Assembly: GCA_945787715.1 (NCBI GenBank)
Contig: CALZJE010000003.1
Coordinates: 6,088-70,087 of the forward strand
DNA length: 64,000 nucleotides
Direction of reading: 5' to 3'
Origin: an uncultured Ectothiorhodospiraceae bacterium
GTDB taxonomy: Bacteria > Pseudomonadota > Gammaproteobacteria > S012-40
Within the stretch, counting starts at the first letter, position 1; each line of letters begins with the position of its first letter. The notes beneath the pieces are model-generated. The model had not been told where the DNA came from and ran no database searches. It saw only the letters and a program-made list of their open reading frames with translations. The translations under genes were made by a program, and so were the position numbers. Positions 22,908-23,627 of this stretch are shown piece by piece.

Positions 22908-23627
22908 ATGCATGATTTAGATCAGACCCAACTCGATTATAGCCGTGCAGAGTTTGATGATGACGAGTTTGAGTTAGAAGGGGAGTTCGAAAATGATATG
23001 GCTGTGTCAGGTGCTGATGAATATGAGGATGAGGATGAGTTTGAAAGTGAATATGAGTTCGAATCCAACTTTGATGGAAACAGTCCTTTTAGTGAAGCAG
23101 AGGAAATGGAGCTTGCTGCGGAATTAATGGAAATTGCAGACGATGGGGAATTGGAATATTTTCTAGGTAGGCTGATTAAACGCGGCGCTCGACGGGTTGG
23201 TCGTAGGCTACGTAAACGTGTAGGTACACGGTTGAGAAAGGGGTTAAAAAGACTTGCTAAACGCGGTTTGAGATTCGCAGGTGGAGCTGTTGGTGGTGCG
23301 TTAGGTGGTCCTGTTGGAGCCGTGGTAGGACGAGCTGCGGGTCGTGGATTGGGAAAAGTGTTTGGACTTGAATTAGAAGGTATGAGTCTGGAAGACCAAG
23401 AGTTTGAAGCAGCGCGTCAATTTGTTCGGCTTGCAGGTGATGCTACCTCTACTGCAACAGCAATTCCCTCTTCTGTTAATGAAGAAGTTGTTGCTCACAA
23501 GGCGCTGAAAAGATCAGTGGTAAAATTTGCACCGGGACTCGCAGGTAAAACCAGACGCTCTGTTCGTGGAGAAAAATCTGGACGCTGGGTTCGTAAAGGT
23601 TCTAGCATCATTCTAATGGGTGTTTGA
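22908..23627 (+). CDS. Hypothetical protein with a strongly acidic N-terminal half and an Arg/Lys-rich amphipathic glycine-zipper C-terminal half
   Basis: Residues ~1-90 are extremely acidic (DEFELEGEFEND…EYEDEDEFESEYEFESNF). Then comes RLIKRGARRVGRRLRKRVGTRLRKGLKRLAKRGLRFAGGAVGGALGGPVGAVVGRAAGRGLG, cationic with a GxxxG zipper. No signal peptide. Confidence 0.6.
   Translation: MHDLDQTQLDYSRAEFDDDEFELEGEFENDMAVSGADEYEDEDEFESEYEFESNFDGNSPFSEAEEMELAAELMEIADDGELEYFLGRLIKRGARRVGRRLRKRVGTRLRKGLKRLAKRGLRFAGGAVGGALGGPVGAVVGRAAGRGLGKVFGLELEGMSLEDQEFEAARQFVRLAGDATSTATAIPSSVNEEVVAHKALKRSVVKFAPGLAGKTRRSVRGEKSGRWVRKGSSIILMGV

What the first reader, a model, noticed from the sequence alone, without database searches (positions are those of the whole stretch)
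22908..23627. Protein with a hyper-acidic N-terminal half fused to an Arg/Lys-rich amphipathic glycine-zipper half
The first ~90 residues have a large negative charge (runs of D/E, EFESEYEFE). The second half is strongly cationic (RRVGRRLRKRVGTRLRKGLKRLAKRGL) and runs into GGAVGGALGGPVGAVVGRAAGRGLG, a GxxxG zipper of the kind seen in membrane-inserting peptides. The layout resembles a cationic, membrane-active peptide masked by an acidic pro-region. The co-encoded V8-like protease (Glu/Asp specificity is a guess) could be the processing enzyme. Both proposed roles are hypotheses.
Basis: partly seen in the sequence, partly recalled or inferred. Interest (0 to 1): 0.8.

Follow-up and report, generated by a model that had tools for sequence, protein, structure and literature searches.

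The report
Charge-masked glycine-zipper protein heading unknown σ54 cassette
This gene encodes a protein whose disordered, very acidic head has co-evolved to neutralise a folded, very basic glycine-zipper domain, and it is the first gene of a very widespread, undescribed sigma-54-controlled gene cassette that also encodes cell-wall-cutting enzymes with no export signal.

Summary
ORF 22908-23627 encodes 239 aa. Residues 1-90 have net charge -33, residues 91-153 have +20, and an eight-turn glycine zipper follows.

It is not an isolated peptide. It is the first gene of a σ54-dependent operon that recurs in at least a dozen phyla: A (this protein), B (an HExxH protein), C (an Ig-like domain plus an all-α domain with no structural match), variable peptidoglycan hydrolases and proteases without signal peptides, and a dedicated convergent σ54 activator. 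A, B and C match nothing in Pfam, NCBIfam, PADLOC, PHROGs or the PDB. B and C each have more than 4,000 unannotated relatives.

Residues ~60-239 form a confidently predicted folded module. The same module is fused behind other heads, including PG_binding_1 and Amidase_2, and occurs in tandem.

The strongest result concerns charge. Head charge and module charge are anti-correlated (r = -0.86; sister-pair contrasts r = -0.74). The head is built of acid-aromatic-acid triads (z ≈ 23). Paralogues without an acidic head have neutral modules. "Masking" is therefore supported.

Membrane activity and the identity of the processing enzyme are not shown. There is no classical TM helix. The V8-like protease is an optional accessory, whereas B is the invariant partner.

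My best model is a masked, holin-like or permeabilising module that gives signal-less wall hydrolases access to peptidoglycan. Confidence in that mechanism is moderate to low.

The parts
22609..22671 (+). Imperfect 30-nt inverted repeat. It is a candidate upstream activator (bEBP) site. This is untested.
   Evidence: the arms are 70% complementary and lie 170-230 nt upstream of the -24/-12 element. Its role is inferred from position only.
22837..22852 (+). σ54-type -24/-12 promoter element, TGGCATtcattCTGCT.
   Evidence: it lies 71 nt before the ATG. The same element sits at -58 to -73 in the Myxococcus, Pelagibius and Nocardiopsis loci. A high-scoring element is present upstream of A in 29 of 61 loci, against 0 of 61 on the opposite strand and 0 of 61 in shuffles.
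22908..23087 (+). Gene A, head (aa 1-60): an invariant MHD-D-T N-terminus followed by a disordered polyanionic run of acid-aromatic-acid repeats.
   Evidence: pLDDT 46-61, no secondary structure; triads, z = 23.5.
23088..23627 (+). Gene A, portable module (aa ~61-239). It comprises an acidic helix (63-74), basic amphipathic helices (79-125), a glycine-zipper helix (125-153), the LELEG...EFE-A-RQFVRLAG helices (161-207) and a C-terminal β-hairpin GRWVRKGSSIILMGV.
   Evidence: HMM of 183 positions; full-length copies at the C-termini of 18 other cassette proteins; tandem duplications; AF2; zipper conservation.
23633..24946 (+). Gene B: a conserved HExxH (HEVGHQGA ... WISEI-AD-WS) putative zinc metallopeptidase, the invariant neighbour of A.
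   Evidence: 66% mean column identity across phyla; H193, E194, H197 and E233 invariant; 473 species-level relatives; at least 5,431 clusters, all 'hypothetical'; the database start is at 23633. No Pfam, NCBIfam, PADLOC, PHROGs or PDB match. An alternative TTG start at 23624 would overlap A's stop codon.
24958..26826 (+). Gene C: an N-terminal Ig-like β-sandwich plus a large conserved all-α domain with no known fold relative.
26864..27694 (+). Accessory gene: an Amidase_2 (N-acetylmuramoyl-L-alanine amidase, endolysin-like) with no signal peptide.
   Evidence: PF01510, 4e-12; PHROG endolysin, 7e-12; no signal-peptide-like N-terminus.
27731..28645 (+). Accessory gene: a trypsin-fold serine protease of glutamyl-endopeptidase (V8-like) type with no signal peptide.
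   Evidence: searches (PF00089, 2e-9; nearest PDB relatives are glutamyl endopeptidases, E = 2e-6), (a same-type protease is the only accessory gene in the closest relative).
28736..30085 (-). Dedicated convergent σ54 activator (bEBP): a truncated receiver-like N-terminal domain, an AAA+ domain and an HTH.
   Evidence: Sigma54_activat, 3e-56; convergent bEBP downstream of C in about 50 loci; 61% mean column identity; conserved N-terminal ...AGASDV--W motif.

Best explanation
ORF 22908-23627 ('A') is the signature first gene of a widespread, previously undescribed σ54-dependent cassette. The cassette reads: A, then B (an HExxH metallopeptidase-like protein), then C (an Ig-like domain plus an α domain with no structural match), then variable peptidoglycan hydrolases and proteases that lack signal peptides, then a dedicated convergent bEBP.

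A has two parts. The first is a disordered polyanionic head made of acid-aromatic-acid repeats. The second is a folded, strongly cationic helical module (~180 aa) that carries an eight-turn glycine zipper and a C-terminal β-hairpin.

Shown here:
- The head's negative charge co-evolves with the module's positive charge, so the protein is held in a charge-compensated ('masked') state.
- The module is a portable domain, also found behind peptidoglycan-binding or amidase heads.
- The operon has a σ54 promoter.

Inferred:
- On induction by the bEBP, A is made together with the lytic enzymes.
- The Glu-rich head is removed or displaced. The likely agent is the invariant neighbour B. In this lineage the glutamyl-endopeptidase-like protease may contribute.
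- This frees the cationic glycine-zipper module to bind the anionic cytoplasmic membrane and self-associate through the zipper face.
- The membrane is breached, and the signal-less amidase, protease and other wall enzymes reach the peptidoglycan.
- This would be a holin-like role, leading to lysis or to lysis-type secretion.
For: - Operon and σ54 dependence: (29 of 61 loci against 0 of 61 in both controls). The dedicated bEBP is conserved. Nocardiopsis carries its own rpoN beside the cassette, although Actinobacteria lack σ54 (PMC3162934).
- Conserved A-B-C core across at least 12 phyla.
- Charge compensation: r = -0.86 with p = 1e-22. Sister-pair contrasts give r = -0.74 with p = 3e-7, and 28 of 31 informative pairs have opposite sign. 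Head-less paralogues have neutral modules.
- The head's alternating acid-aromatic pattern (z = 23.5) is what a cover for a cationic amphipathic surface would need.
- The basic helices have a high hydrophobic moment.
- The glycine zipper has exact i+4 periodicity over 8 positions, at least 93% conserved. This indicates a helix-helix packing face.
- Wall enzymes without an export signal: 0 of 144 accessory proteins, and neither the window's amidase nor its protease, has a signal-peptide-like N-terminus. Yet of 103 variable-slot proteins 27 carry PG_binding_1, 8 Amidase_2, 6 OmpA-like and 3 VanY, with single muramidase, M23 and M74. The window's amidase matches phage endolysin families.
- No transporter genes were found in the cassette.
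- Direct fusion of PG_binding_1, Amidase_2 and the module in one protein.
Against: - No cassette protein has a classical TM helix. The zipper segment is weakly hydrophobic (KD 1.36; family median 1.07) and contains semi-conserved basic positions.
- AF2 predicts a compact, soluble-looking bundle in which the basic helices are packed at pLDDT above 90. The module may never enter a membrane.
- Canonical holins are absent, and the cassette is absent from 50,697 phage genomes and from IMG/VR contigs. It is therefore not a phage lysis cassette.
- The most conserved proteins, B and C, have no assigned role in this model.
- Cleavage of the head is not shown, and no conserved cleavage motif was identified.
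- The module fused to hydrolases is near-neutral. Cationic membrane binding therefore cannot be the module's general function.
- The signal-peptide test is a crude hydrophobicity scan on ORFs taken from the first possible start codon.
Confidence: 0.4

Rival explanations
1. Docking or adaptor module. The ~180-aa module is a soluble protein-protein interaction domain. Through its C-terminal β-hairpin and zipper face it tethers different 'heads' (acidic tail, Cys-knuckle, PG-binding domains, amidase) to the conserved B-C machinery, for assembly, processing or export. A itself would be a regulatory or scaffolding subunit, not a membrane-active agent. Charge balance would only keep the protein soluble.
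For: - The module is portable and always C-terminal, behind heads of 30-650 aa. It also occurs in tandem.
- It is confidently predicted as a compact bundle with a terminal β-hairpin.
- There is no TM helix.
- Modules fused to enzymes are near-neutral.
- A is next to B in nearly all loci. B and C are more conserved than anything else in the cassette, as expected for a machine that recognises a common tag.
Against: - It does not explain why the class-1 module is so cationic and amphipathic, nor why a patterned polyanionic head tracks that charge so tightly.
- No interaction data exist.
- B and C have no TM segments or transporter features that could account for export.
Confidence: 0.3
2. Outward-directed weapon. 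The cassette is a bacteriolytic cocktail released by lysis of a subpopulation. Once unmasked outside the cell, A acts like a cationic antimicrobial protein that breaches the outer or inner membrane of competitor or prey cells, so that the co-released wall hydrolases can kill them ('lysis from without', a natural analogue of engineered endolysin-peptide fusions).
For: - It rests on the same physico-chemical evidence as the main model.
- Hydrolases are fused to the module.
- The accessory arsenal is varied, as in polymorphic toxin loci.
- Hosts include many soil and sludge antagonists and predators: Myxococcus, Janthinobacterium, Massilia, Saprospiraceae, Nocardiopsis.
Against: - No immunity gene is evident.
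- There is no secretion system or signal peptide.
- Fused modules are not cationic.
- The flat 50-57% identity of B and C across phyla argues for a conserved internal target rather than an arms race.
Confidence: 0.15
3. Polyanion-binding (for example nucleic acid) protein with an auto-inhibitory acidic tail. The basic helical module would bind DNA, RNA or another polyanion, and the acidic head would compete as a mimic, as acidic tails do in HMGB-type proteins. Alternatively A could regulate the bEBP in the way PspA regulates PspF.
For: - The module has a net charge of +11 on average and is balanced by the head.
- A is the first gene of an operon driven by a bEBP that lacks a complete receiver domain, as in the Psp system.
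Against: - The conserved glycine zipper and β-hairpin have no counterpart in histone folds.
- Paralogous modules are neutral.
- The operon context is cell-wall hydrolysis, not nucleic-acid metabolism.
Confidence: 0.08
4. Precursor or substrate protein. The repetitive E-Φ-E head would be a substrate that B and the frequently co-encoded small-molecule enzymes (aminotransferase-like c2, Amidohydro_2 c1, M20 peptidase) process into peptides or a modified product. The module would act as a recognition 'leader'.
For: - The head shows strongly non-random acid-aromatic-acid repeats.
- The peptidase-like B is always adjacent.
- c2 is present in 33 and c1 in 38 of 51 loci.
Against: - Head length and sequence are highly variable, and only composition and pattern are conserved.
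- The window's own cassette lacks c2, c1 and M20.
- The idea does not explain the charge co-variation or the module-hydrolase fusions.
Confidence: 0.05

Closest known systems
Phage and tailocin holin-endolysin lysis cassettes, and holin-dependent 'type 10' secretion
   Same: - A signal-less muramoyl-L-alanine amidase (best PHROG match 'endolysin') and other wall hydrolases are co-transcribed with a small protein carrying a Gly/Ala-rich, weakly hydrophobic segment.
- No Sec or Tat signal is present on the enzymes.
- The weakly hydrophobic, Gly/Ala-rich character resembles SAR and pinholin helices (my own knowledge).
   Different: - A has no true TM helix and is 239 aa with a folded soluble-type domain.
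- There are no spanins.
- Control is by σ54 and a dedicated bEBP.
- The two most conserved genes (B, C) have no phage counterpart.
- The cassette is absent from 50,697 phages and from IMG/VR contigs, and A, B and C have no PHROG hits.
Anionic pro-pieces that neutralise cationic antimicrobial peptides (defensin and cathelicidin-type precursors)
   Same: An anionic segment charge-balances a cationic amphipathic segment in the same polypeptide. Here this is shown by co-variation. The proposed activation is proteolysis, with proteases encoded in the same operon.
   Different: - The system is bacterial and has no signal peptide.
- The 'mature' part is a ~180-aa folded domain rather than a short peptide.
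- The mask is a patterned E-Φ-E repeat.
- Cleavage is not demonstrated.
- There is no sequence or structural relationship.
Glycine-zipper membrane-active proteins (VacA N-terminus, CdzC/CdzD bacteriocins, T6SS ionophore effectors such as Tse4/Ssp6)
   Same: Tandem GxxxG repeats form one face of a helix. Here there are 8 consecutive i+4 positions, at least 93% conserved. Weak Pfam echoes were seen: Gly-zipper_Omp in a paralogue (E = 0.004) and C19orf12 (E = 0.044).
   Different: - No significant sequence match to any glycine-zipper family.
- The zipper here is embedded in a larger folded domain, flanked by a poly-basic helix and an acidic motif.
- There is no T1SS or T6SS context.
- Hydrophobicity is lower than in typical TM zippers.
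Pore-forming colicin and Bcl-2-type 'inside-out' helical bundles
   Same: Conceptually similar: a soluble helical bundle stabilised by salt bridges that hides a ~20-35-residue uncharged helical segment and could open on anionic membranes. The abstract of PMC12925061, seen, describes salt-bridge control of colicin Ib membrane insertion.
Psp system (PspF bEBP with PspA as first gene of the σ54 operon)
   Same: A σ54 operon whose first gene encodes a helical protein that may associate with membranes, next to a bEBP without a canonical phospho-receiver.
   Different: - No homology to PspA/IM30.
- The bEBP has its own conserved N-terminal domain.
- The operon content is wall hydrolases, not PspBC.

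Membership tests
Holins (any class, including pinholins) | At least one hydrophobic transmembrane helix in a small (about 60-150 aa) protein | tested here: not met
   The best 19-mer has KD 1.36. The family median is 1.07 and 1 of 67 homologues reaches 1.6. The protein is 239 aa with a folded domain.
Holins (any class, including pinholins) | Encoded next to an endolysin in a phage, prophage or tailocin lysis cassette | tested here: not met
   An endolysin-like amidase is in the operon. However, the cassette is chromosomal, sits between housekeeping genes, and is absent from phage collections.
Holins (any class, including pinholins) | Permeabilises the cytoplasmic membrane and releases endolysin | not testable with these tools
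   This needs expression and lysis assays.
Pfam/NCBIfam glycine-zipper families (Gly-zipper_Omp, Gly-zipper_YMGG, C19orf12-like) | A profile match above the curated threshold | tested here: not met
   C19orf12 scores 14 bits against a cut-off of 30. Gly-zipper_Omp scores 17.6 bits against 25, and only in a paralogue.
Glycine-zipper motif proteins (structural motif, not a homologous family) | At least three tandem (G/A/S)xxx(G/A/S) repeats on one helix face, conserved among homologues | tested here: met
   Eight consecutive i+4 positions (125-153) are Gly or small in at least 93% of 67 homologues. The segment is predicted helical at low confidence.
Pro-peptide-masked cationic antimicrobial peptides | Anionic pro-region whose charge balances the cationic mature region | tested here: met
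   r = -0.86 across 73 homologues. Sister-pair contrasts give r = -0.74. Total charge is -7.9 ± 3.2.
Pro-peptide-masked cationic antimicrobial peptides | Proteolytic removal of the pro-region yields an active membrane-disrupting peptide | not testable with these tools
   Proteases are co-encoded. Neither cleavage nor activity can be tested in silico.
Pro-peptide-masked cationic antimicrobial peptides | The mature product is a short (under about 60 aa) peptide, and the precursor is secreted via a signal peptide | tested here: not met
   There is no signal peptide. The cationic part belongs to a ~180-aa folded domain.
σ54-dependent operon with dedicated bEBP | A -24 GG / -12 GC promoter at the correct spacing upstream of the first gene, conserved in orthologous loci | tested here: met
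   TGGCAT-N5-CTGCT lies at 22837-22852. A high-scoring element is present in 29 of 61 loci against 0 of 61 in both controls.
σ54-dependent operon with dedicated bEBP | An adjacent gene for an AAA+ σ54 activator with the GAFTGA loop | tested here: met
   Sigma54_activat scores 3e-56. ERGAFTGA is conserved in the alignment. A convergent bEBP is present in about 50 loci.
Known anti-phage defence systems (PADLOC-DB) | A profile match of the core proteins to a catalogued system | tested here: not met
   A, B and C have no hits. Only the generic AAA+ part of the bEBP and the protease fold match.
Histone-fold / nucleoid proteins | A significant structural match to the histone fold (helix-strand-helix dimer motif) | tested here: inconclusive

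The most novel reading that the evidence does not exclude
The A-B-C cassette is a new, self-contained class of σ54-triggered cell-envelope-breaching system. Its three core proteins have no detected relatives of known function. Its defining element is a portable glycine-zipper domain that takes signal-less peptidoglycan hydrolases across or into the cytoplasmic membrane without Sec, Tat, holins or any known secretion system. In the founding protein A, this domain is kept inert by a co-evolving polyanionic acid-aromatic mask, which the invariant HExxH partner B removes.
Probability: 0.3. Interest if true: 0.9.

Novelty: categorically new. Interest (0 to 1): 0.8.

Why it matters
If the model holds, this is an unrecognised route by which bacteria from at least a dozen phyla expose their own, or a neighbour's, cell wall to hydrolases. 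The route is regulated by σ54 and built from three protein families that each have hundreds to thousands of unannotated members and no known fold relatives.

Three consequences would follow:
- It would give a function to a very large block of 'hypothetical' environmental genes.
- It would add a new type of portable membrane-crossing or targeting domain.
- It would provide a natural example of a charge-masked lytic protein with a quantitative evolutionary signature, the head/module charge co-variation. That signature could be used as a search criterion for other masked toxins.

The cassette also carries its own σ54 gene into Actinobacteria, a phylum that otherwise lacks σ54. This shows that a sigma factor can travel as part of an accessory module.

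Even if the membrane model is wrong, the A-B-C core remains a well-defined and experimentally tractable unknown.

Tried and rejected
- **Family scans.** Pfam, NCBIfam, PADLOC and PHROGs scans of A, B and C found no significant family. Scanning 31 diverse C members one by one gave only scattered noise.
- **PDB sequence profiles.** For A, B and C these returned only designed helical repeats or a spurious β-propeller hit.
- **Phage origin.** Rejected: B is absent from INPHARED phages and from IMG/VR contigs.
- **Classical holin or TM protein.** Rejected on hydrophobicity.
- **V8-like protease as the dedicated, universal processing enzyme.** Rejected as a general rule, because it is present in only a minority of loci. 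It remains possible in this lineage.
- **Strict σ54 pattern.** It found only 14 of 61 loci. I replaced it with a scored pattern with controls.
- **Source organism.** Exact-sequence look-ups of A and C found no contig, and the cluster entries carry no names. The organism could not be identified.
- **Remote B-like proteins on plasmids.** I used these as a possible bridge to a named family, but they have no Pfam domain either.
- **The Paraburkholderia acidic/basic ORF.** It resembles A only in composition.
- **Literature.** Six full-text searches found no description of the cassette. The 2011 σ54 neighbourhood survey does not mention it.
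Full report
**1. The observation.**
ORF 22908-23627 (+ strand, 239 aa, ATG start) exists as described. It is preceded by a strong RBS, AAAGGAGA.

- Residues 1-59 carry 25 D/E and 1 K/R. Residues 1-90 have net charge -33.
- Residues 91-121 carry 16 K/R and no acidic residue. Residues 91-153 have net charge +20.
- Residues 122-153 contain 12 Gly and nine overlapping GxxxG.
- None of 20,000 shuffles of the sequence reaches this charge segregation.
- The basic stretch would be strongly amphipathic as a helix (µH 0.6-1.0).

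**2. It is a conserved family, not a compositional oddity.**
A search of 5.8 billion proteins returned 578 homologues. All are 'hypothetical' and none has a Pfam domain. They come from Acidobacteriota, Actinobacteria (Nocardiopsis), Myxococcota, Bacteroidota, and Alpha-, Beta- and Gammaproteobacteria, among others.

Alignment shows conservation along the whole length:
- an invariant N-terminal MHD-D-T;
- a variable acidic head;
- the motif PF-E-EEMELAAELL-V---ELE-FLG;
- a basic stretch, then the Gly zipper;
- the motif FGLELEGLS-EDQEFE-ARRFVRLAG;
- HAPGL;
- a C-terminal SGRW-RRG--I-L-GV.

The layout is a family trait. Median head charge is -20 (42% D/E, 16% aromatic), median basic-segment charge is +12 and median total charge is -8.

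**3. Genomic context: a σ54 cassette.**
In the window the gene heads a tightly packed + strand set:

| Gene | Coordinates | Description |
|---|---|---|
| A | 22908-23627 | This protein |
| B | 23633-24946 | Contains HEVGH |
| C | 24958-26826 | 622 aa |
| Amidase_2 | 26864-27694 | PF01510, 4e-12 |
| Trypsin-fold protease | 27731-28645 | PF00089, 2e-9 |
| σ54 activator | 28736-30085, minus strand | Convergent |

The ~8-kb block lies between glnA-glnL-glnG on one side and trmL-like, gpsA, secB and gpmI on the other. Its GC content is slightly above that of its flanks.

The same order, A→B→C→variable genes→convergent bEBP, appears in Rapidithrix (Bacteroidota), Myxococcus, Pelagibius and Nocardiopsis.

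Using B as a probe, 473 species-representative genomes encode a relative, all at a flat 50-57% identity. They include Chloroflexota, Planctomycetota, Verrucomicrobiota, Nitrospirota, Deinococcota and Calditrichota. In 84 loci the A-B-C trio is essentially invariant, and a convergent bEBP lies 3-8 kb downstream of C in about 50 of them.

A -24/-12 element, TGGCAT-N5-CTGCT, sits 71 nt upstream of the ATG. The same element occurs at -58 to -73 in three unrelated loci. With a scored pattern it is found upstream of A in 29 of 61 loci, against 0 of 61 on the opposite strand and 0 of 61 in shuffled sequence.

The bEBP is a dedicated orthologue family (61% mean column identity) with a conserved, truncated receiver-like N-terminus. 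The Nocardiopsis locus carries its own rpoN next to A, although Actinobacteria lack the σ54 system (PMC3162934).

**4. The partners.**
- **B.** Mean column identity is 66% across phyla. The HE-GH motif and a downstream Glu (WISEI) are invariant, which suggests a gluzincin-type metallopeptidase. That is inference from the motif only. B has at least 5,431 unannotated relatives.
- **Database matches.** A, B and C match no Pfam, NCBIfam, PADLOC or PHROGs family and no PDB sequence.
- **Not phage-borne.** The cassette is absent from 50,697 phage genomes and from IMG/VR contigs. It occurs on only a few rhizobial and Paraburkholderia megaplasmids.

**5. The variable slot.**
I clustered 177 ORFs lying between C and the bEBP in 51 loci. 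The main clusters are:
- an aminotransferase-class I/II-like protein (33 loci);
- an Amidohydro_2 protein (38 loci);
- a heterogeneous set found in 41 loci.

Among 103 proteins outside the two uniform clusters, Pfam finds:

| Domain | Proteins |
|---|---|
| PG_binding_1 | 27 |
| PG_binding_3 | 13 |
| Amidase_2 | 8 |
| OmpA-like | 6 |
| Trypsin | 6 |
| VanY | 3 |
| M20 | 3 |
| Muramidase, M74, M23 | 1 each |

None of 144 accessory proteins, and neither the window's amidase nor its protease, has a signal-peptide-like N-terminus. This was a crude hydrophobicity test. The window's amidase matches phage 'endolysin' families. The cassette therefore encodes wall-directed enzymes with no evident way out of the cytoplasm, and no transporter genes.

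**6. The target is a head plus a portable module.**
An HMM of residues ~60-239 finds full-length copies at the C-termini of 18 other cassette proteins, behind heads of 30-650 aa. One of these is a PG_binding_1-Amidase_2-module fusion of 850 aa. A β-proteobacterial class has an MH---C-C--C-R Cys-knuckle head. The ~400-aa homologues are tandem duplications of the module.

AF2, run on a 67-sequence alignment, gives pLDDT 76 and pTM 0.67:
- residues 1-60 are disordered;
- helices span 63-74, 79-97, 103-125, 161-185 and 192-207, with pLDDT above 90;
- a lower-confidence helix covers the zipper (128-152);
- a terminal β-hairpin spans 226-237.

**7. Tests of the 'masking' idea.**
- Across 73 single-module homologues, head charge (-18.9 ± 6.2) and module charge (+11.0 ± 5.7) are anti-correlated, with r = -0.86 (p = 1e-22). 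Total charge is -7.9 ± 3.2, against 8.4 expected if the two were independent.
- In 36 disjoint sister pairs the changes are anti-correlated, with r = -0.74 (p = 3e-7). Of 31 informative pairs, 28 have opposite sign.
- Module proteins without an acidic head have near-neutral modules.
- The head is patterned. Acid-aromatic-acid triads occur 328 times against 113 ± 9 in shuffles (z = 23.5), and 62% of aromatics are flanked by D/E on both sides.

An alternating anionic-aromatic strand is what would be needed to cover a cationic amphipathic surface.

**8. Tests of the 'membrane' idea.**
The zipper is remarkably regular. Positions 125, 129, 133, 137, 141, 145, 149 and 153 are Gly or small in at least 93% of homologues. 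They are interleaved with a hydrophobic stripe and two or three semi-conserved basic positions. This indicates a helix-packing, oligomerisation face.

The segment is only weakly hydrophobic, however. The uncharged run has a median of 20 residues. KD is 1.36 in the window and 1.07 as the family median. No cassette protein has a classical TM helix. Membrane insertion therefore remains plausible, by analogy with SAR helices, glycine-zipper toxins and colicin-type bundles, but it is unproven.

**9. The protease.**
Its nearest solved relatives are glutamyl endopeptidases, including V8 (E = 2e-6 to 4e-5). The catalytic motifs are present. 'V8-like' is therefore fair as a family label, but specificity is not established.

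Proteases of this type occur in only a minority of loci. In the closest relative of this cassette, however, a same-type protease is the only accessory gene. The invariant candidate for processing is B.

A compositionally analogous pair occurs on a Paraburkholderia plasmid: an EGEWE-repeat acidic/basic ORF followed by an HExxH protein. Another remote B-like gene lies among patatin, PLD, CHAT and S8 genes on a Bradyrhizobium plasmid. These are analogies and remote homologies, not proof of function.

**10. Synthesis.**
Shown:
- the cassette, its σ54 promoter and its dedicated activator;
- the head plus portable-module architecture;
- charge compensation between head and module;
- the conserved zipper;
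- signal-less wall enzymes in the variable slot.

Inferred:
- unmasking by proteolysis (B and/or the serine protease);
- zipper-mediated oligomerisation at the anionic membrane;
- access of the hydrolases to peptidoglycan, leading to lysis or lysis-type secretion.

I put this mechanism at about 0.4. The rivals are a soluble docking or adaptor module for a B-C machine (about 0.3), an outward-directed lytic weapon (about 0.15), a polyanion-binding or regulatory protein (about 0.08), and a precursor or substrate protein (about 0.05).

**11. Novelty.**
Six full-text literature searches and a σ54 neighbourhood survey yielded no description. No curated library covers any of the three core proteins. 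I rate the cassette as categorically new in composition, with functional analogies to holin-endolysin cassettes and to pro-peptide-masked cationic peptides. Membership of those families fails on defining features: there is no TM helix, no phage context, no signal peptide and no short mature peptide.

Noticed in passing
L004:8532-9845 (Nocardiopsis sp. YSL2), next to the A homologue at L004:10001-11206: The actinobacterial copy of the cassette carries its own rpoN (σ54; PF04963 and PF04552), and the B-like gene lies upstream of it. Actinobacteria otherwise lack σ54 (PMC3162934). The cassette therefore seems to travel with its own sigma factor.
   Followed up: partly
L057:14404-15453, L038:15369-16019, L031:7707-10259 and 15 others: Many loci encode a second module protein with a different head: an MH-x-x-C-x-C-x-x-C-R Cys-knuckle, PG_binding_1, or Amidase_2. 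These modules are near-neutral in charge.
   Followed up: yes
P0003, P0006, P0017, P0089 (about 400-aa homologues): These are tandem duplications of the module within one polypeptide. Only the last copy keeps the C-terminal GRW-RRG--I-L-G hairpin.
   Followed up: partly
window 22609-22671: A 30-nt imperfect inverted repeat (70% complementary) lies about 170-230 nt upstream of the σ54 promoter. It is a possible binding site for the bEBP.
   Followed up: no
L087:5491-6912 (Bradyrhizobium quebecense plasmid) and L088:4441-6837 (Paraburkholderia sp. PGU19 plasmid): Remote B-like HExxH proteins (24-28% identity). One lies among patatin-like, PLD-like, CHAT (two copies) and S8 peptidase genes. The other is preceded by an ORF with EGEWE acidic-aromatic repeats followed by a basic stretch, which is a compositional analogue of A.
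   Followed up: partly
L013:10001-11308: The B homologue in an uncultured β-proteobacterium MAG contains one in-frame stop codon. This could be a pseudogene, a recoding event or an assembly error.
   Followed up: no
Loci L001-L084, between C and the bEBP: Two uniform accessory genes are common: an aminotransferase class I/II (AONS-like, 'LDFTSALYLG') in 33 of 51 loci and an Amidohydro_2 protein in 38 of 51. Both are absent from the window's reduced cassette, and their role is unexplained.
   Followed up: partly
window 58001-60000 (overlaps the minus-strand 975-aa ORF 57664-60591): The AT skew is unusually strong (-0.293) compared with the rest of the window.
   Followed up: no
window 23624-23633: B has two possible starts. 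A TTG at 23624 would overlap A's stop codon by 4 nt. An ATG at 23633 is the start used by the database gene call (437 aa). Either way A and B are close enough for translational coupling.
   Followed up: partly
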